Shown: positions 1 to 7,031 of the stretch, piece by piece
Position numbering within the stretch: position 1 is the stretch's first letter
How the letters are laid out: every line of letters begins with the position of its first letter
IMG/VR virus record: IMGVR_UViG_3300037721_000031
Span: 160,001 to 224,000 of that record
From: a virus
Taxonomy: Duplodnaviria; Caudoviricetes
Direction: 5' to 3' (one strand)
Length of the DNA: 64,000 nt
The notes under the pieces: model-generated
The model's database searches: none
Seen by the model: only the letters and a program-made list of their open reading frames with translations
What the model was told of the DNA's origin: nothing
Made by a program: the position numbers and the translations under genes

Positions 1-361
1 TATCTCCACTATACGTAGTTAGAAAATCTTTCATCGTCATTACTACTGGCAGATAATTACCTCGAGTACCTGACTGAACCAGTAGTTTCTGCAGACTCTC
101 TTGCGATGGTTTATTTACAGTAATAAAAAGTGCTTCTCGTTTCAGAGGAAGTGCTCTATTCACCAACGTCATTGTCTTTTCACTCTGACGAATACCACCA
201 AGAAGGATTGTCCGCCACTCACGATAAAGCGTAGGGCTTGCCGTGACAAAACCAGACATTACGCGTCTTATGCTTGTTTCTCTACTATTGATATATGTCT
301 CGAGTGTATCAAGGAGTGAACCCCAATTGATACTGGATTGATGTATGGTCGTATTAGCCAT
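1..361 (-). CDS. Hypothetical protein, truncated by window edge
   Basis: My translation from ATG at 361 (MANTTIHQSSINWG...) stays open to base 1; not in the supplied track because no stop is in view. Confidence 0.75.
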   Translation of the reverse strand, partial: MANTTIHQSSINWGSLLDTLETYINSRETSIRRVMSGFVTASPTLYREWRTILLGGIRQSEKTMTLVNRALPLKREALFITVNKPSQESLQKLLVQSGTRGNYLPVVMTMKDFLTTYSGD

Positions 362-393
362 TATTCAAATGCCTTTTTACTAGTTAAAAAAAC

Positions 394-485
394 TGGCGGA
401 TATGGTAGGATTCGAACCTACGGAACCCATTGCTGGGTTCGACGGTTTAGCAAACCGTTGCGTTAAGCCTCTTTGCCACATATCC
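394..485 (-). tRNA. tRNA-Ser(GCT)
   Basis: Cloverleaf; anticodon arm ACGGT-TTGCTAA-ACCGT; long variable arm; GGTTCGAATCC T-arm; encoded CCA. Confidence 0.95.
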
Positions 486-489
486 AATT

Positions 490-576
490 TGGCTCCACAG
501 GCTGGATTCGAACCAGCAAGACCTTTCGGAAGACGCGTTAACAGCGCGTTGCAGTACCAGTTATGCTTACTGTGGA
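490..576 (-). tRNA. tRNA-Asn(GTT) with extended variable arm
   Basis: Acceptor TCCACAG/CTGTGGA, G73, CCA; anticodon arm ACGCG-CTGTTAA-CGCGT; 15-nt variable region. Confidence 0.9.
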
Positions 577-581
577 ATTGT

Positions 582-1094
582 TCAAATCAAATTATAAGAC
601 TTAACCCATTTACGGACTGCATTATCCGATACACCATACTTCTCACCAAGCTTGACCATTGAAGTGGTTTCAATTTCTAGTGCTAAGACTTCTTTCGAAG
701 GACGTTCGGCTTTCCGACGACCAAAGTCTTGACATGGTCGAGAACAGTACTTCTCTGTATGATCAACCGGCTTATCACATGTTGCGCAACGAATACAACC
801 TAGTGCTTTTCTCTCAGCATATTCGGGCTTTGGAGTGATTATATTTTTGCTGAGCCACGTATGCAGCTTCGCATGCATCGGTCCAGAAAGAACTAGGAGA
901 TTATCTGGAGAATTATTTGTTTTATTCTCATCGAGGTGATGAACTTCTTCACCTTCTTTAAAAGGTCTGTCAAGTAACTCTTCAGCGATCAGTCGATGTT
1001 CGTACTGATAATCTTCGACAGATGCAGTTTCCAATTTTTCAGGATCAACTACAGCCACATAACCATTTTTGATTATTCTTTGTTTCTTAGCCAT
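582..1094 (-). CDS. HNH homing endonuclease with Zn-ribbon and C-terminal HTH
   Basis: YEHR...VHHLDENKTNNSPDNL HNH motif, CxxC pairs; start moved to MAKKQ because the longer ORF runs through two tRNA genes. Confidence 0.9.
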   Translation of the reverse strand: MAKKQRIIKNGYVAVVDPEKLETASVEDYQYEHRLIAEELLDRPFKEGEEVHHLDENKTNNSPDNLLVLSGPMHAKLHTWLSKNIITPKPEYAERKALGCIRCATCDKPVDHTEKYCSRPCQDFGRRKAERPSKEVLALEIETTSMVKLGEKYGVSDNAVRKWVKSYNLI

Positions 1095-1114
1095 AAAATT
1101 TTCGACCTTCTTAT

Positions 1115-1190
1115 TGGTCCGCCCGGAGGGATTCAAACCCCCGACCCGCTGAGTAGAAATCAGCTGCTCTACCAACTGAGCTACCGGGGA
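1115..1190 (-). pseudogene. Degenerate tRNA (anticodon TCT) on an Asn/Lys-type body
   Basis: D and T arms recognisable, but the acceptor has two mismatches, T-loop TTTGAAT and anticodon loop TTTCTAC. Confidence 0.7.
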
Positions 1191-1217
1191 ATAATTCGTT
1201 GTTATCAATATAACAAT

Positions 1218-1294
1218 TGGTTTCTCGACTTGGGCTCGAACCAAGGACCTACAGCTTAGAAGGCTGTTGCTCTATCCAACTGAGCTATCGAGAA
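1218..1294 (-). tRNA. tRNA-Arg(TCT)
   Basis: Acceptor TTCTCGA/TCGAGAA; anticodon arm ACAGC-CTTCTAA-GCTGT; CCA. Confidence 0.95.
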
Positions 1295-1674
1295 ATGTTC
1301 GTCATCTTCTTAATAGCTTTAAGAAGAAGTTTTAAATAGGGTGTTTCAATAGATATATTTGGCTTTGAGAACATTACTTGACCATCTGGAAAATCAAGTC
1401 GTAGCTCTGGTCTGTAGATTACCTGAATGAAACCAAGATCACTACATTTAGATTGTCCTCCTCTTTTGAAGAACTTTCTATAGTCAGATAATCTATTCCA
1501 TCCAAATACGAAATTGGCTATTTTAAGTGCCTCAAGTACTTCATCAGGAAGACTCATCGCCTTCGCCATTTTATCTGGATCATAATGCGGTGTTAGGTAA
1601 CGGACACATACTTGGTCACCATGAAAAGGTCCATTACCTTTCTCATCTTCAAGACGATATACTTTTCTAGGCAT
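1285..1674 (-). CDS. Hypothetical phage protein (VYRLE..G.GP N-terminus)
   Basis: Likely start MPRKV follows the upstream stop; its own stop lies inside tRNA-Arg. Confidence 0.7.
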   Translation of the reverse strand: MPRKVYRLEDEKGNGPFHGDQVCVRYLTPHYDPDKMAKAMSLPDEVLEALKIANFVFGWNRLSDYRKFFKRGGQSKCSDLGFIQVIYRPELRLDFPDGQVMFSKPNISIETPYLKLLLKAIKKMTNISR

Positions 1675-1676
1675 GA

Positions 1677-2108
1677 TTAACAGTATGTCTGTACGCCAGC
1701 AACTAAAATTACTTGTTTCCCGTATACTGCAGTACTGTGCCAACCTAAACGTTTGGCTATTGCTGCAAACATGTAGGTATCAAGGTACTTGCTTGTTATG
1801 TCTGGGGATTGAGTGTGACGCAAGAAATACGCGATCTCGTCGTCCCAGTTATTAGTGATGTTAGTATCGAGACGGTCCTCCCGAGCACAACTCACTGAAA
1901 AAGATTTTATTTGAGACATCAGTGTATTAATAACATTCGGCTGAATGATCACTGAAGGCTGATTTGGTGTTCTATCGTTAGGATCTGGAAACTCGAATCC
2001 GCAAGCTGATACATTACGAGCTGCTCTTAGAAAATAGGCGATAAACGCACCAGTTTCTGGATGATAGAAGTCATCGACATTGCTATTACCGTCTTTACTG
2101 TTCATCAA
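1677..2108 (-). CDS. Hypothetical protein
   Basis: 143-aa codirectional ORF. Confidence 0.65.
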   Translation of the reverse strand: MMNSKDGNSNVDDFYHPETGAFIAYFLRAARNVSACGFEFPDPNDRTPNQPSVIIQPNVINTLMSQIKSFSVSCAREDRLDTNITNNWDDEIAYFLRHTQSPDITSKYLDTYMFAAIAKRLGWHSTAVYGKQVILVAGVQTYC

Positions 2109-2256
2109 ATTACTCCATATTGCTCTAAGTCATATCACTGCTTTAGAGCGGGCTGAGAAAAAAAGAAAACACAACACATTGTGAATACATGAGATTTTGG
2201 CCTCATGTATTCATTACATGCATCTATTTAAGTGCATGTAAAGGTTTAACAAATAA

Positions 2257-2343
2257 TGGTGCCCGGAACCGGGATCGAACCGGTATGACCGTAAGGTCGA
2301 GGGATTTTAAGTCCCTTGCGTCTACCTATTTCGCCACCCGGGC
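2257..2343 (-). tRNA. tRNA-Leu(TAA)
   Basis: Anticodon arm AGGGA-CTTAAAA-TCCCT, long variable arm, CCA; no intron. Confidence 0.95.
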
Positions 2344-2384
2344 ATTCTGAAATCAATTTAACAAATTATGCAACTGTCTCAATA

Positions 2385-2460
2385 TGGTGCCCCCGGTCTG
2401 AATCGAACAGACGACCTTCCGCTTACAAAGCGGGTGCTCTACCAACTGAGCTACGAGGGC
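2385..2460 (-). tRNA. tRNA-Thr(TGT)
   Basis: Canonical cloverleaf; loop TTTGTAA; CCA. Confidence 0.95.
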
Positions 2461-2482
2461 ATTTATTATACCATACTTAAAC

Positions 2483-2806
2483 TGGAACCGATCGCCTGAA
2501 TCGAACAGACTTCTATCACCTAACGTTTATCCCAACTGTTAACTGTGTAACTCACTGCTTCTGCGTCATTGGACTGCCTGTGCTATCTCTTAGCACAGGC
2601 TTCTCTTAGAGAATTTATCCAATTGTCTAGATAGCGGAGATTACTACATTACCAGCATCAATACCCATAGACGTTTATTCACATCCGAAGATGAACGTTC
2701 AGCCAGGGCGGGCTAGGACTAGCTAAATGCTATCTGCTCCTAAGTGGGCAGACTCCTATTGATCAGACTACATACAGTGATTGCTCTACCAATGAGCTAG
2801 ATCGGC
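2483..2806 (-). ncRNA. tRNA-scaffolded RNA with 257-nt insert replacing the anticodon loop
   Basis: Acceptor GCCGATC/GATCGGT, D-arm GCTC-ATTGGTA-GAGC, stem ATCAC/GTGAT, T-arm GTCTG-TTCGATT-CAGGC, CCA; insert 2520-2776 is hairpin-rich. Confidence 0.85.
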
Positions 2807-2830
2807 TTACTACTTTCAAACAACCGTTAC

Positions 2831-3794
2831 CGTACCACTATAGTTTTCACTACCGAGGATGACTTTTCTCAAATGCGACTACAGTCATCTTGGCTGTGCT
2901 AGCCATTTCTTTGGAGACTTCAACGATCTTCTATTAGGAAGACCTCCATCTATATAAATCCAAATACTCTCGTTTGTGGTCTGGACTATGCCTTCATCCA
3001 TTGTTACTCGGCGGCAATCATATCGGCATTGTCACTCCATTTTACTGGGGATATTTCCAATATAGCTATCCACCCTAGACAAAGCACATGTTGTTCATTC
3101 CAACAACACCCGCTCTTTAAGCCTACACTTGGATGATCTCCATCTAGTCTCTACACCTTCAAGAATAATCTACGTACCTTCACAGGTATGTGTATATCAT
3201 TACTAATTCAGATACTAAAGATACCGAGAGTCGAACTCGGACCATTCCACAGCGGAGTCTACCGCTTGACCTATATCTCTAGTACAGTGCTGTGTTCACC
3301 TTCTGAATTAATACATTCAATACATCAATAGCCGGAGGAGCCCTACTCCATGGACGAATCATAGGTTTCGAAGCTACTATCGTCTGTTTATTGTCATACC
3401 TGCCGGCATGACTCAACACTCTACGTTCTTTTAATCGCTACTGAAAAATTACTCAAGCTTGGCTCGGCGTTGACATGGTAAACTTATTACATAAATGGAT
3501 CATCACTTTTGGATGTTTCCATTTTGTTAGGTCCAAGTCTACTTTAGTGTTCGCCGAATTTGAAGATATTCACCTAACAGGGTATAGGATTCTCACCTAG
3601 TACGCTTAGAGTTTGACCTCAATCGTTTCCTGCTATTTTACCGTCTCTCGATTGCATCGTTTCGTACATAGCTTCTTTTTGAAGGAAGCTACATATATCC
3701 CCAACGCATTTTTCGGTGGTGCTCATGTTTCTGCTGGATAGTCATGACTCGTGCTCACATAAGTATTCGCGAATCACTAATACCCATTCAGCAT
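2831..3794 (-). ncRNA. Group I intron (IB-like, ORF-less, large peripheral inserts)
   Basis: P4 UCGGCG/CGCCGA, P3 AUCUUCA/UGGAGAU, P7 GACUA/UAGUC, P8 CAUCCA/UGGAUG, P9.0 ACCAC/GUGGU, terminal G at 2831; core is clear, 5' splice site is inferred. Confidence 0.85.
3215..3282 (-). ncRNA. tRNA-like domain embedded in intron L6
   Basis: 9-bp acceptor-like helix, U8-A9, D-arm GGTC-AAGCGGTA-GACT, perfect T-arm CCGAG-TTCGACT-CTCGG, stunted anticodon arm. Confidence 0.75.
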
Positions 3795-3818
3795 AAGACG
3801 GTTATTTTACTAACTAAA

Positions 3819-4217
3819 CTAGATGGACATTATGAGTACATGTCCATCATCACCAACAATCATGTCTTCAACTTCTTCATGGTCGAAAGGAATGTCTCTG
3901 TAGCGCTCTCGAGCTTCAGCATGTTCCGCTCCACCATTTACTTTCTCTTGTTTTCGTCTCAGAGCTCTGGCTTCATAAGCATGCAAAGCTTGCTTTAAAT
4001 GCCAAATCGCATCTTTAGTTTCGTCACACGGAATCAATCCATCAAGGTAGACAGACCTATCCAAGAGTGCTCGAATGACTTCCTGAGTATTTGTTCCTTG
4101 GTATTCGACATCATGCCTCACATGCCGGCTACTTCTTTTACAGAATTTCAATTCCTGATGACCTGGTGTCCCAAGATTATCAAGATGGTAAATGTGACCT
4201 GCATCAATTATTTTCAT
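3819..4217 (-). CDS. Tad1-like (Tad1/Acb2 fold) anti-defence sponge candidate
   Basis: H.Y...KF.K...G....E...L.DR......P..E...A..H...AL......R...V.G pattern matches Tad1 as I recall it. Confidence 0.65.
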   Translation of the reverse strand: MKIIDAGHIYHLDNLGTPGHQELKFCKRSSRHVRHDVEYQGTNTQEVIRALLDRSVYLDGLIPCDETKDAIWHLKQALHAYEARALRRKQEKVNGGAEHAEARERYRDIPFDHEEVEDMIVGDDGHVLIMSI

Positions 4218-4234
4218 TCAATTTCTCATTAATA

Positions 4235-4490
4235 GCTTGACTCCCTATAGTCCACCAGCCGCATCTTATCCGGGTAATGGACTATAGGTTGCCCTCGTTA
4301 GACTCGTCAGTCTACAGAGAAACAGCTTCCACTCAAAATGGCTGGCAACCAAATCAAGTGACGTACAGTTTAGAAAGTGCCAACTCTCCACTTTAGATGG
4401 TTTTTGCCATCGCTTCCTCCCAGAGCCACGAGTGTCACTGTTAGTCCTCGCAGCTTGGATCATTTATACGAGTATTCCTACTCGTTTCGC
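4235..4490 (-). ncRNA. Putative structured ncRNA or 5' leader
   Basis: Several nested helices, incl. CCTATAGTCCA/TGGACTATAGG, GGTTGCC/GGCAACC, GTGAC/GTCAC, TAGACT/AGTCTA. Confidence 0.55.
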
Positions 4491-4525
4491 TCATTTATTT
4501 TTAAACCGTTGAGCTCATCAGTAAG

Positions 4526-4852
4526 TTACGGTTTCGGATGCTTTACAGCTTCCTCATATAGCTTTGCACTCTTATCAAAAAGCCAAGCAGCTTGATGAAA
4601 TCGGTGTGCTGCTTCATTAACAAGATCCTGAGCTTCCTTTGTGGACTTGTCAATTCCCTTAAGAGAAGTCATTATCTTGTCGGCTTTCTCCTTATTTTCT
4701 TTTGCCAAAGCATATGCTTGGTCAGCTTCTTCAAGGTGATTCCTGTCGTCGTTCATTTCCTGAACTTGCGAGTCTGTGTAATCTTGCTGCATTTGAGGTT
4801 CTGTTATAGTCGTGTATACATTAGTGAGGACCTTTGCATTAGGCATCTTCAT
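4526..4852 (-). CDS. Hypothetical coiled-coil protein
   Basis: 108-aa codirectional ORF, helical and charged. Confidence 0.7.
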   Translation of the reverse strand: MKMPNAKVLTNVYTTITEPQMQQDYTDSQVQEMNDDRNHLEEADQAYALAKENKEKADKIMTSLKGIDKSTKEAQDLVNEAAHRFHQAAWLFDKSAKLYEEAVKHPKP

Positions 4853-4925
4853 ACTTAATCCAGATTGAATGTTTGAATAAGAAAAGAGAATAAGTGTTGA
4901 TGTGATCTCTACTTATTCTATAAAC

Positions 4926-5004
4926 TGGTAGGCCGGGTGAGATTCGAACTCACTATCGCTGGCTTATGAGGCCAGTGCTTATACCAGGCTTATGCTTCCG
5001 GCCC
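4926..5004 (-). tRNA. tRNA(CAT), Met or Ile2
   Basis: Anticodon arm CTGGC-CTCATAA-GCCAG; acceptor GGGCCGG/CCGGCCT with C4-G69 and C5-G68 favours Ile2; atypical A8 and D-arm. Confidence 0.85.
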
Positions 5005-5400
5005 ATTTTTATTTCTATCTCTACTGTATTGTTTCATCCAGACACTCTTTGCTTCTTTGCAAAGGTCACATTTACAGTAGCGATATTCTGTAAGAGTCCC
5101 GTGTTTTGGAATTCTTTTGCTTCTGAACAACTCGTCTGCTTTTTCTCTATTTTGTGGTTTTGTCAGAATCTGCAGATTGTTAATATCGTCGTTTGTTTTA
5201 TCATCGTCTTTGTGATCGACTTCAAGACCATCTGGTACGATATATCCGAGTTTAACAGACATCAAATAACGAGCATATGAAATTGTTGTACTGGTTTCCC
5301 CAGTATTGTAGAGAATAACATTTCTTCTATTCTCTGGGTTTACAACAATGTACCCACATTTCCATTTCTCCTTGAATGGAGATTCTAGTTCTATTTTCAT
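4990..5400 (-). CDS. HNH homing endonuclease
   Basis: VDHKDDDKTNDDINNLQIL motif; stop codon lies inside tRNA(CAT). Confidence 0.9.
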   Translation of the reverse strand: MKIELESPFKEKWKCGYIVVNPENRRNVILYNTGETSTTISYARYLMSVKLGYIVPDGLEVDHKDDDKTNDDINNLQILTKPQNREKADELFRSKRIPKHGTLTEYRYCKCDLCKEAKSVWMKQYSRDRNKNGPEA

Positions 5401-5415
5401 GTTCTTTTTTTTTTT

Positions 5416-5449
5416 AAGCCGCTGCTCTAACCATCTGAGCTAACGGCCC
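5416..5449 (-). pseudogene. 5' half of a tRNA gene, broken at the anticodon loop
   Basis: GGGCCGT-TA-GCTC-AGATGGTTA-GAGC-A-GCGGC-TT, then an A11 run and the HNH start. Confidence 0.85.
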
Positions 5450-5455
5450 TAGAAA

Positions 5456-5716
5456 CTATTGCGGAATCACTACTGTGAAGTTTTCACCACAGTATCCACC
5501 TATCAAATGCTTTCCTTTGGAGCGACCAAATCCAGGGTCGGTTCCTTTACAATAATCCTTGTAACTTCCCTTGTACAACGTCATCGTGTTATCACCACCA
5601 TAGTCTGGATCGGACCACACAAAGTTACCAAGAGCTGTTTCAATGAAGAAGTGCATTCCCCACATGTAGGTGAAGTCACCGACTGCGTTAGCAATTGCTT
5701 CTTTACTAATAGCCAT
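5456..5716 (-). CDS. Hypothetical phage protein
   Basis: 86-aa ORF with SD GGAG. Confidence 0.75.
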   Translation of the reverse strand: MAISKEAIANAVGDFTYMWGMHFFIETALGNFVWSDPDYGGDNTMTLYKGSYKDYCKGTDPGFGRSKGKHLIGGYCGENFTVVIPQ

Positions 5717-5735
5717 GTTGATCTCCTAAAGTTTG

Positions 5736-5825
5736 TGGAGGAAGTGGTGAGATTCGAACTCACGGAGCCATCTCTGACCCAACAGTTTTCAAGACTGTCT
5801 CATTAAACCACTCTGACACACTTCC
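5736..5825 (-). tRNA. tRNA-Ser(TGA)
   Basis: Anticodon arm ACAGT-CTTGAAA-ACTGT, long variable arm, CCA. Confidence 0.95.
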
Positions 5826-5836
5826 AAAAATAAAAC

Positions 5837-6854
5837 TGGATTCGATGATAAAAGAAATAGTGACGGCCACGACACTGAACAATCGTCAGCGCTGCCGTCT
5901 CTACCCATAACAGGCAGCTTTACTTCCACTAAGACCAACTATGGTCTTAGTGGAAGTGGATTGTCGATCACATTCCCAATTGTAGTCAGGAATTATCAGC
6001 TCTGGCCAGATCCCTCCGGACAGCATTTGACATCATGTCTTGTGGACTAGACATCAAATAAAAGGCCATACACACAGGTCCCAGAATACTAACCTAAATC
6101 TCAGAGAACTTCTGATGAGGCTACCAACCTCAGCACTCTCACGAGTGTCAGACTCTTGCAAGATCTAATAGCTAAATATTCCTGGAGTCAAGATGATGGA
6201 AGAATATGATTAAAGTCATACCCGTATTCGTCTGTGGATGGCGAAACTGTTTACATCTATCGGATAAAAGACTACGTACAGACTCATTACTGTTACTCGG
6301 CTGTAGTATTACCGGCAACGTGTTTATCACTACGCTACCGATTCTATAAGCCTACATATTTGCCTGTACGTAGTAAAAACTGTTGAAAACACAATCTCAG
6401 TATCACGAGTAAATCTCGCCGTCTCGAAACGGCAAGACTGGTTGTTCGAGCAACCATCCAATATAAAGCTTCAGCAATATACCGAACAACTCATGATCTA
6501 GAGGCTGCATTCTCGAACCATTAGTTTAGTGGCTTCAACACTTGCGACTTTCGTCCAAGCTCCACCCTGCATCACCTAGGTTCAGACTTACAACTTGGCA
6601 GAAACAAGGAGTACCACCCCCTACGAATCTACCCATAGTGTTTCGATTAGTTGGTGCTAATCATCAGACCATATACCGTATTGAGAGTCTCAGTGTGTGT
6701 CTCCTGGACACACAACTCTCATAGTACATGACTCTTTAACACTTAAGATCAAATGACTCTCGGAAATACTCTCTGAGTCGTCTAACAAATTATAATGAGT
6801 TCGAATATTTTCTTACACATTTCAATCAAGAACAGCATACTTCTACACTATTCC
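5837..6854 (-). ncRNA. Large (~1 kb) structured ncRNA ending in CCA
   Basis: No minus-strand ORF of 60 aa or more; over 12 hand-paired helices; 5' GGAATAGTG pairs with 3' CACTATTTC; ends TCGAATCCA-GTTTT. Confidence 0.75.
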
Positions 6855-6860
6855 ACTTAT

Positions 6861-6876
6861 GTCATATGTGTTTGAA
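6861..6876 (-). promoter_or_regulatory. Putative phage promoter TCARACACA-TATNAC
   Basis: TCAAACACATATGAC; same motif upstream of genes at ~37575, 43305 and 52415; resembles the phiKZ early TATTAC core. Confidence 0.55.
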
Positions 6877-6887
6877 ATTTCTTTGAT

Positions 6888-7031
6888 TCAAGAAATAAGA
6901 TACAGATAACCAGCGAATGCTGTTAGACAAACAATCTTGACATAATGTTTACGGAGGATACCGTTAGCAGCCACCAATGTCAATCCACAGATATTTTTAC
7001 CAACCATAATTACAGTCTTAGTCAAACTCAT
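6888..7031 (-). CDS. Small hydrophobic protein (47 aa)
   Basis: My translation MSLTKTVIMVGKNICGLTLV...; below the ORF track cutoff. Confidence 0.5.
   Translation of the reverse strand: MSLTKTVIMVGKNICGLTLVAANGILRKHYVKIVCLTAFAGYLYLIS

What the first reader, a model, noticed from the sequence alone, without database searches (positions are those of the whole stretch)
3215..3282. tRNA-elbow mimic buried inside the intron's L6
Seen: CTAGAGATA/TATCTTTAG helix, U8-A9, D-loop with GG, a perfect T-arm and an anticodon arm shrunk to about 10 nt, with no CCA. It sits at the tip of a longer stem (AATTCAGA/TCTGAATT). Known: L6 is where T4 td carries its endonuclease ORF, and small tRNA-like elements such as mascRNA are cut out by RNase P and RNase Z. 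Inference: an RNase P processing handle or a decoy for elbow-binding proteins.
Basis: partly seen in the sequence, partly recalled or inferred. Interest (0 to 1): 0.75.

Follow-up and report, generated by a model that had tools for sequence, protein, structure and literature searches.

The report
Portable anticodon-less tRNA body in phage intron
A giant phage carries a conserved RNA domain that keeps the acceptor, D and T arms of a tRNA but has lost the anticodon arm; it sits at the tip of an outer arm of a group I intron, sits in a different RNA in a related phage, and so looks like a self-contained, selected module whose partner is unknown.

Summary
On the minus strand, 3282..3215 is a tRNA-shaped element: a 9-bp closed acceptor-like helix, U8-A9, a D arm with GG, a perfect T arm, and 15 nt where the anticodon arm and variable loop should be. 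It has no CCA. Rfam's tRNA model scores it 36.0 bits against a threshold of 29.

Two related uncultivated phages carry the same module. Across the three lineages all 24 proposed pairs stay paired and 5 show compensatory changes. The 32 unpaired core bases are almost frozen, while the surrounding RNA is only 74-83% identical.

The placement is also right. The module lies in a roughly 290-nt extension of P6 of a group I intron whose compact relatives interrupt tRNA anticodon loops in other phages.

Three results are new:
- In lineage L002/L003 the module is absent from P6. It sits instead inside the insert of the neighbouring scaffold tRNA, so it is portable, with one copy per locus.
- It always travels with a 5' mini-hairpin whose loop (CACAG) is complementary to the linker (CUGUG).
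- Two pairs beyond the 7-bp acceptor stem covary.

I read it as an autonomous tRNA-elbow domain displayed on large stable phage RNAs. Excision by RNase P or RNase Z is not excluded, and function is unknown. This scan has noted anticodon-less tRNA-shaped phage elements on other DNA before.

The parts
3215..3282 (-). tRNA-like core: 9-bp closed acceptor-like helix, U8-A9, D arm, 15-nt linker, T arm; no anticodon arm and no CCA
   Evidence: Sequence. Rfam tRNA 36.0 bits at 3216..3280. All pairs kept, with 5 compensatory changes across 3 lineages.
3241..3255 (-). Linker CCGCUGUGGAAUGGU that replaces the anticodon arm and variable loop. It is invariant in the three lineages. Its last 5 nt fit variable-loop positions 44-48 (G46, U48).
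   Evidence: Alignment A4. The CUGUG stretch (3252-3248) is complementary to the leader loop.
3283..3301 (-). 5' leader mini-hairpin: stem GGUG (3300-3297) with CACU (3289-3286), invariant loop AACACAG (3296-3290). It always accompanies the tRNA body.
   Evidence: A4: one G-C to A-U compensatory change in L002. Strains X2 and X3 change the G-U pair at 3300 to A-U. Duplex of the loop with the linker is -10.9 kcal/mol, reached by about 5% of shuffles.
3302..3309 (-). Outer stem, 5' strand (AAUUCAGA)
   Evidence: Pairs with 3212-3205. L004 and L002 have different sequences that still pair: CUCUA/UAGAG and GUUGUCUC/GAGACAAU.
3205..3212 (-). Outer stem, 3' strand (UCUGAAUU)
   Evidence: As for the 5' strand. 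The strain variant at 3308 keeps the pair as G-U.
3160..3462 (-). P6 and its roughly 290-nt extension in the group I intron. The module is one arm of this extension.
   Evidence: It lies between P4' CGCCG (3469-3465) and J6/7-P7 GUAGAGACU (3154-3146). Homologous to the 209-nt P6 insert of L002. Relatives L019 and L020 have a very short P6 at this position (a 4-bp hairpin in L020).
2831..3795 (-). Host RNA: an expanded group I intron with no host gene.
   Evidence: Rfam Intron_gpI: 22.8 bits in the window and 37.3 bits in L002. Core read by hand: P3 3567-3562 with 3141-3136, P4 3556-3552 with 3469-3465, P7 3149-3146 with 2987-2984. The same 3' core occurs in tRNA-borne introns of L019 and L020.
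2483..2806 (-). Neighbouring scaffold tRNA with a 231-nt insert by ARAGORN's call (about 257 nt with my AUCAC/GUGAU anticodon stem). Its L002/L003 homologue is the alternative host of the module.
   Evidence: ARAGORN with introns allowed. Alignment A3 shows that L002 carries the module here, while the window and L004 do not.

Best explanation
The element is an autonomous RNA domain of about 88-105 nt derived from a tRNA. It consists of a 5' mini-hairpin followed by a tRNA body (acceptor/T coaxial helix, D arm, D-loop/T-loop elbow) whose anticodon arm has shrunk to a short invariant linker. It cannot decode. It is grafted through a helix onto the tips of outer arms of large, stable, ORF-free RNAs in the phage's tRNA island: the P6 extension of a host-less group I intron in this phage, and the insert of a scaffold tRNA in a relative.

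I infer that it works while still embedded, as a displayed tRNA-elbow or tRNA-body mimic. A trans-acting partner that recognises tRNA shape rather than the anticodon would bind it. Candidates are the RNase P specificity domain, T-arm enzymes such as TruB or TrmA, a host tRNA-directed defence factor, or another RNA carrying an elbow receptor. The leader loop probably docks on the linker and holds the domain compact.

Shown here: the fold, its conservation, its portability and its single copy per locus. Inferred: that it is not excised, the leader-linker contact, and any partner.
For: - Fold: Rfam tRNA scores 36.0 and 38.2 bits, and all tRNA tertiary-contact bases are present.
- Selection: 24 of 24 pairs are kept in 3 lineages. 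Five pairs show compensatory changes. Only 1 of 500 shuffles reaches these values, and slid controls pair at 33-45%.
- Rates: stem positions differ at the background rate (29/36 and 26/36 identical) without breaking a single pair. Unpaired core bases are 32/32 and 29/32 identical, against 83% and 74% in the rest of the P6 region (P about 0.003 and 0.025). The three changes fall at D-loop position 17 and T-loop positions 59-60, which are variable in real tRNAs.
- Portability: the window and L004/L005 carry the module in P6. L002/L003 carry it in the scaffold-tRNA insert and have an unrelated stretch of about 55 nt in P6. Each arrangement is seen in contigs from two runs.
- Copy number: one copy per locus and one in the 266-kb genome.
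- Against simple excision: the pairs -1:73 and -2:74 covary, and the invariant leader hairpin moves with the body.
- Precedents: tRNAs embedded in GOLLD linkers (10.1101/2024.12.08.627333; PMC12990946). tRNA-like domains of Y RNAs are recognised by tRNA enzymes, and RNase P cut only the version with a 7-bp acceptor stem (PMC4201824).
Against: - Only three lineages are available, at 74-98% identity, so covariation counts are small. The D stem and the leader-linker pairing never vary in an informative way.
- There are no RNA data at all, so excision cannot be excluded.
- The leader-linker complementarity is only marginally unusual (about 5% of shuffles).
- An alternative hairpin (D-loop AGCGG with linker CCGCU) is more stable in nearest-neighbour energy and also tolerates the one observed change.
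- No candidate partner was identified. The phage has no Ro60, CCA-adding enzyme or RtcB.
- A module that moves between RNAs is equally what one expects of a cargo that is cut out of any abundant carrier.
Confidence: 0.4

Rival explanations
1. Processing handle or cargo. RNase P cuts 5' of A3280 and a 3' nuclease cuts near A3216. This releases a tRNA-like small RNA of about 65 nt, possibly CCA-tailed, as with mascRNA or M. smegmatis YrlA. The outer stem keeps the nicked host RNA together, and the large RNA serves only as an expression platform.
For: - The element has a 7+5 bp acceptor/T stack plus an intact elbow, which are the main RNase P determinants. Position -1 is U in the window.
- Its position at helix tips means excision would not break up the host RNA.
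- Moving between two carrier RNAs fits a cargo.
- RNase P cleaves a closed-stem tRNA-like domain in M. smegmatis YrlA (PMC4201824).
- Unchecked notes from this scan describe tRNA-shaped inserts in phage tRNA anticodon loops that are proposed to be removed this way. Lak megaphages have a tRNA intron predicted to encode a tRNA (PMC6784885).
Against: - The two pairs beyond the 7-bp stem are kept by compensatory changes. This buries position 73 and leaves no single-stranded 3' trailer or CCA.
- The phage's real tRNAs encode CCA.
- The invariant leader hairpin travels with the body, which a discarded 5' leader would not need to do.
- In PMC4201824, Y RNAs without a 7-bp acceptor stem were not cut.
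Confidence: 0.27
2. Intramolecular building block. The T-loop/D-loop elbow makes a tertiary contact within the host RNA, or between host RNAs, and so stabilises folding or multimer assembly of the large RNA. No protein partner is involved.
For: - T-loops are common structural modules in large RNAs (established knowledge).
- The module sits in outer extensions, which is where group I introns usually carry stabilising elements.
- Large phage RNAs near tRNA islands, such as GOLLD and ROOL, assemble through RNA-RNA contacts (10.1101/2024.12.08.627333).
Against: - The same module works in two unrelated host RNAs, so a contact specific to the intron core is unlikely.
- L002's intron keeps its core and its other P6 arm without the module.
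- Compact relatives L019 and L020 lack any P6 extension.
Confidence: 0.15
3. Neutral relic: a decaying tRNA pseudogene captured by recombination inside the tRNA cluster, with no function.
For: - It lies in a tRNA cluster with homing-endonuclease genes, where rearrangements are expected.
- The linker can be read as a tRNA-Thr(UGU)-type anticodon arm with about 7 nt deleted. This is my reading and is weak.
Against: - The unpaired core bases are frozen, while the stems change only in pair-preserving ways at the background rate.
- The module is kept as a single copy through a change of location.
Confidence: 0.06

Closest known systems
tRNAs embedded in the linker of GOLLD RNA (large phage and prophage RNAs beside tRNA arrays)
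   Same: A tRNA-shaped unit is covalently embedded in a variable, outer region of a very large structured phage RNA inside a tRNA island. Function is unknown (10.1101/2024.12.08.627333; PMC12990946).
   Different: The GOLLD-embedded units are complete tRNAs, for example tRNA-Phe. This one has no anticodon arm, a closed 9-bp helix and no CCA. The host RNA here is a group I intron relative, and Rfam finds no GOLLD or ROOL match in 1-7000.
YrlA-type bacterial and phage Y RNAs (tRNA-like domain)
   Same: A non-decoding RNA domain with acceptor-like stem, D arm and T arm that is recognised by tRNA enzymes. It is attached by a helix to another functional module (PMC4201824).
   Different: In YrlA the rest of the RNA leaves from the anticodon-arm position and the acceptor stem is a closed hairpin. 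Here the connection runs through the acceptor-like helix and the anticodon arm is nearly gone. There is no RF02553 match at this site and no Ro60/TROVE gene in the phage.
mascRNA / MEN-beta tRNA-like elements and plant mitochondrial t-elements
   Same: A tRNA-like fold with a reduced anticodon arm embedded in a much longer transcript (PMC11693755).
   Different: Those elements have free flanks, are cut by RNase P and RNase Z, and receive CCA. Here the flanks are base-paired with covariation, and processing is untested.
Peripheral P6 insertions of phage group I introns (T4 td and nrdB carry their endonuclease ORFs in P6 loops)
   Same: The same permissive site in the ribozyme holds a large foreign insert. 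This comparison rests on established knowledge and was not tested here.
   Different: The insert here contains no ORF. It is structured RNA that includes a tRNA body, and the intron itself has no host gene.
'Enigmatic' tRNA introns of Lak megaphages, one of which is predicted to encode a tRNA (PMC6784885)
   Same: A tRNA-shaped unit nested inside another phage RNA of the tRNA repertoire. In L002/L003 the module lies inside an insert in a tRNA's anticodon loop.
   Different: In L002 the module is only one arm of an insert of roughly 500 nt, not the whole intron. In the window it is not in a tRNA at all.

Membership tests
tRNA (Rfam RF00005) | Score at or above the curated threshold (29 bits) | tested here: met
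   36.0 bits in the window and 38.2 bits in L004. The L002 copy was not reported at E <= 1.
tRNA (Rfam RF00005) | Anticodon arm with a 7-nt loop | tested here: not met
   15 nt lie between the D stem and the T stem. The model skips its 18 anticodon-arm positions.
tRNA (Rfam RF00005) | Free 3' end: unpaired discriminator base plus CCA, encoded or addable | tested here: not met
   Position 73 and the next base are paired with -1 and -2, with covariation. No CCA is present, whereas neighbouring real tRNAs encode CCA.
tRNA (Rfam RF00005) | D-loop/T-loop elbow and core tertiary-contact bases | tested here: met
   U8, A14, A15-U48, G18, G19, U54, U55, C56, A58, G53-C61 and G46 are all present and invariant.
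RNase P/Z-processed tRNA-like elements (mascRNA type) | Cleavage at both ends and CCA addition | not testable with these tools
   Only assembled contigs were available, and none from an RNA library covers the module.
YrlA Y RNA (RF02553) | Model match, and a Ro60 (TROVE) gene nearby | tested here: not met
   No match at this site at E <= 10. No TROVE domain in the 266-kb genome, and the control genomes gave hits.
Group I intron (RF00028), as the host RNA | Score at or above the threshold of 50 bits | tested here: not met
   22.8 bits in the window and 37.3 bits in L002. Large P6 and P8 inserts depress the score.
Group I intron (RF00028), as the host RNA | P3, P4, P6, P7 and P8 in order, with a J8/7 consensus and covariation | tested here: met
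   P3 reads AUCUUC/GGAGAU here, CAACAC/GUGUUG in L019 and AGUG/CACU in L020. P4 shows C-G to U-A changes. P7 is GACU/AGUC. J8/7 is AAGGCAUAGUCC. L019 and L020 copies interrupt tRNA anticodon loops.
GOLLD / ROOL | Match to the Rfam models | tested here: not met
   No hit at E <= 10 in 1-7000.

The most novel reading that the evidence does not exclude
The mini-hairpin plus anticodon-less tRNA body is a portable 'tRNA-body cassette' that phages move between large scaffold RNAs in their tRNA islands. It would titrate or recruit a factor that recognises tRNAs by shape. One example is a non-cleavable decoy for a host tRNA-targeting defence nuclease. Another is a handle that brings RNase P or tRNA-modifying chaperones to the giant RNAs. 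The cis leader loop, which contains an ACA triplet, would pair with the relic UGU anticodon to lock the fold. This would be a new class of modular RNA domain in phage-host conflict.
Probability: 0.15. Interest if true: 0.85.

Novelty: new variant of a known kind. Interest (0 to 1): 0.6.

Why it matters
Large structured RNAs in phage tRNA islands, such as GOLLD and ROOL, are abundant, and nobody knows what they do. This finding gives a small, sharply defined piece of such RNAs that can be transplanted and is clearly under selection. It keeps exactly the tRNA features that proteins and RNAs use to recognise tRNA shape, and it has lost the decoding part.

Because it is short and self-contained, it makes a practical bait for finding what these RNAs bind. 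It also shows a group I intron being kept and enlarged as a carrier RNA after losing its host tRNA. That is an unusual fate for a self-splicing intron.

Tried and rejected
- Homologue searches with no result: phage GenBank collection, megablast and blastn (only generic T-arm matches).
- IMG/VR pattern scans for the module and both JGI metagenome scans found nothing.
- IMG/VR protein-based locus searches failed.
- More distant homologues of the upstream ORF lie in protein-dense contexts without the RNA island.
- Model R1 found no second copy in the genome, and none in L019/L020 or their whole records.
- RNA evidence: no RNA holder is listed for the module. One metatranscriptome contig covers only 2913-3139. 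Nothing can be said about expression or processing.
- Rfam's alignment of the window makes the outer stem P8. I rejected this because P3 is unpaired in that alignment and the true J8/7-P7 lies at about 2995-2984.
- A 12-bp long-range helix, 3827-3816 with 3150-3139, appears in the minimum-energy fold. I treat it as chance: about 0.5 perfect 10-mers of this kind are expected in 1 kb, and it competes with P7 and P3.
- Minimum-energy folding of the 68-mer does not give the cloverleaf. I do not use this against the fold, because T-stem covariation contradicts that alternative.
- Partner genes in the phage: no TROVE/Ro60, CCA-adding enzyme, RtcB or Rnl2-type ligase. The T4 Rnl1 search is uninformative because its controls gave no hits anywhere.
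- Literature searches found no description of a tRNA-like domain inside a group I intron.

Full report
**Context.** The window is bases 160001-224000 of a 266,566-bp IMG/VR virus record, a jumbo phage estimated 98% complete. Everything relevant is on the minus strand. A tRNA cluster runs from 394 to 5825. It is interleaved with HNH endonuclease genes and long ORF-free stretches. The finding lies in a 1.36-kb ORF-poor gap between a 132-aa ORF (3819-4217) and tRNA-Thr (2385-2460).

**The observation.** Read on the minus strand, 3282..3215 has the following parts:
- a 9-bp helix, CUAGAGAUA with UAUCUUUAG;
- U8-A9;
- a D arm, GGUC / AAGCGGUA / GACU;
- a 15-nt linker, CCGCUGUGGAAUGGU;
- a T arm, CCGAG / UUCGACU / CUCGG.

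There is no CCA. An asymmetric junction (19 nt on the 5' side, 2 nt on the 3' side) joins it to an outer stem, AAUUCAGA with UCUGAAUU. Rfam's tRNA model matches 3216..3280 at 36.0 bits (threshold 29, E = 1.7e-5) and skips its anticodon-arm positions. ARAGORN and the whole-window Rfam runs missed the element.

The bases that build the tRNA core are all present by direct reading: U8-A14, A15-U48, G18/G19 facing U55/C56, U54-A58, G53-C61, C13-G22 with G46, and A9 with A23-U12.

**The host RNA.** Rfam reports a weak group I intron match at 3173..3694 (22.8 bits, threshold 50). That alignment leaves P3 unpaired and calls the outer stem P8. Reading further downstream gives a proper core:
- P3: AUCUUC (3567-3562) with GGAGAU (3141-3136);
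- P4: CGGCG with CGCCG;
- P7: GACU (3149-3146) with AGUC (2987-2984);
- J8/7: AAGGCAUAGUCC.

The homologue in L002 has a shorter P6 insert. It aligns to the model with exactly this architecture at 37.3 bits (E = 1.7e-7), with 209 nt inserted in P6. A scan for the shared 3' core found two other large phages, L019 and L020. There, compact versions of the same intron interrupt the anticodon loops of real tRNA genes, and P6 is very short (a 4-bp hairpin in L020). P3 and P4 covary across these relatives.

The window's RNA is therefore an expanded relative of tRNA-borne group I introns that has lost its host gene. Its flanks form only a small hairpin, which keeps pairing through two compensatory changes in L002.

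**Homologues of the module.** The upstream ORF has close relatives. Their contigs supply two further lineages:
- L004/L005 are about 83% identical to the window over 1 kb.
- L002/L003 are about 75% identical.
- Two strains about 98% identical to the window were seen in public runs.

In an 88-column alignment of leader plus tRNA body (A4), all 24 proposed pairs are standard pairs in all three lineages. Five pairs show changes on both sides: three in the 9-bp helix and two in the T stem. Only 1 of 500 shuffles does as well. When the 3' partners are slid by 1-3 columns, pairing drops to 33-45%.

Stem positions are as diverged as the background (29/36 and 26/36 identical). The 32 unpaired core positions are 32/32 and 29/32 identical, while the rest of the P6 region is 83% and 74% identical. 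The three unpaired changes fall at D-loop position 17 and T-loop positions 59-60, which are free to vary in genuine tRNAs.

The near-identical strains have no change inside 3215-3282. Their two nearby substitutions turn a G-U pair into A-U in the leader hairpin and an A-U pair into G-U in the outer stem. This is the signature of an RNA fold under selection, not of a dying pseudogene.

First, the module is portable. The window and L004/L005 carry it in the intron's P6 extension. In L002/L003 that position holds an unrelated stretch of about 55 nt. The module (84.7% identical over 85 nt) lies instead inside the insert of the neighbouring scaffold tRNA, the homologue of window 2806..2483, which lacks it in the window and in L004. 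Each arrangement appears in contigs from two different runs. There is exactly one copy per locus and one in the whole 266-kb genome.

Second, what moves is not the tRNA body alone. A 5' mini-hairpin moves with it: GGUG / AACACAG / CACU, with one G-C to A-U compensatory change. Its invariant loop contains CACAG, which is complementary to CUGUG in the invariant linker. The predicted duplex is -10.9 kcal/mol and is reached by about 5% of shuffles. That is suggestive only.

Third, the two pairs that extend the acceptor stem beyond 7 bp both covary. The closed 9-bp helix is therefore itself selected.

**Mechanism.** The domain keeps what proteins and RNAs use to recognise tRNA by shape: the 12-bp acceptor/T stack and the elbow. 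It has lost the decoding arm and the free 3' end. It functions in two different carrier RNAs, so a contact specific to the intron core is unlikely.

A leader that co-migrates with the body, and a helix selected to stay closed, both argue against a plain RNase P/Z handle. Published work on Y RNAs points the same way: RNase P cut only the tRNA-like domain with a 7-bp acceptor stem (PMC4201824).

I therefore favour a displayed tRNA-body mimic that acts while embedded and binds an unknown shape-reading partner (confidence 0.40). Excision into a small tRNA-like RNA remains a serious rival (0.27). The RNase P determinants are present, excision from a helix tip would not harm the carrier, and a cargo would move between carriers in just this way. 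A purely architectural role (0.15) and a neutral relic (0.06) are less likely.

No RNA-level data exist for this phage. No partner gene was found in the genome.

**Comparison with known systems.** The nearest precedents are:
- complete tRNAs embedded in the GOLLD linker (10.1101/2024.12.08.627333; PMC12990946);
- the tRNA-like domain of YrlA Y RNAs (PMC4201824);
- mascRNA-type elements (PMC11693755);
- a Lak megaphage tRNA intron predicted to encode a tRNA (PMC6784885).

The element fails membership tests for tRNA proper (no anticodon arm, no free 3' end), for YrlA (no model match, no Ro60, different topology) and for GOLLD/ROOL (no match). I found no paper describing a tRNA-like domain inside a group I intron.

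Unchecked notes from this scan report anticodon-less tRNA-shaped elements in other phages, some nested in tRNA anticodon loops. I treat these as leads, not as support. They suggest this module belongs to a wider, largely undescribed phenomenon.

**Verdict.** The feature is real and selected. It is a new variant of a known kind, namely tRNA mimics embedded in larger RNAs. What is distinctive is its host (the P6 extension of a host-less group I intron), its portability between RNAs, and its cis leader. Function is unknown. The comparative base is thin at three lineages, which keeps my confidence moderate.

Noticed in passing
window 2483-2806 (minus strand): A tRNA-shaped gene with acceptor GCCGAUC/GAUCGGU, D arm, T arm and encoded CCA. 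Its anticodon loop holds an insert: 231 nt by ARAGORN's call, about 257 nt with my AUCAC/GUGAU anticodon stem. The insert has no Rfam group I match, and no clean 7-nt anticodon loop can be reconstructed. ARAGORN calls it tRNA-Stop(tta). The L002 homologue is about 230 nt longer and carries the tRNA-like module.
   Followed up: partly
window 2831-3795 (minus strand); L002, L004: The group I intron has no host gene. Its flanks would form a small hairpin after splicing: AACCGU..ACGGUU here and AACUGC..GCAGUU in L002, which is two compensatory changes. The loop reads CUUGUA, like a relic tRNA-Thr(UGU) anticodon loop. In L004 a real tRNA ends 24 nt before the intron.
   Followed up: partly
L019 540-810 and L020 7480-6745 (minus strand): Two other large IMG/VR phages carry compact members of the same intron family inside the anticodon loops of intact tRNA genes. 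The L020 copy has an ORF-sized insert near its 5' end. L019 also has a second, canonical group I intron at 2334-2589 (72 bits).
   Followed up: partly
L019 5230-5302: Immediately after two tRNAs, a 73-nt stretch matches bacterial 23S rRNA positions 1082-1155 (38.6 bits, below threshold). This could be an rRNA-fragment mimic in a phage tRNA island.
   Followed up: no
window 4929-5004 and 4990-5400 (minus strand): A tRNA found by Rfam (51.4 bits) but missed by ARAGORN lies immediately downstream of, and overlaps by about 15 nt, the 3' end of an HNH endonuclease ORF. A second HNH ORF lies at 582-1244 between tRNAs.
   Followed up: no
window 3819-4217 (minus strand): A 132-aa ORF directly upstream of the intron. 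It has no Pfam family and a weak match to phrog_2428. It belongs to a family of proteins of about 111-158 aa (mostly 130-140) that is widespread in uncultivated phages (20 hits).
   Followed up: partly
window 2972-2999 and 3140-3160: Freshwater metagenome contigs and one soil metatranscriptome contig match only these two core segments (P7/P3' and J8/7-P7'), with 16-34 unrelated nt between them in place of the 140-nt P8 extension. Many environmental introns therefore share this core.
   Followed up: no
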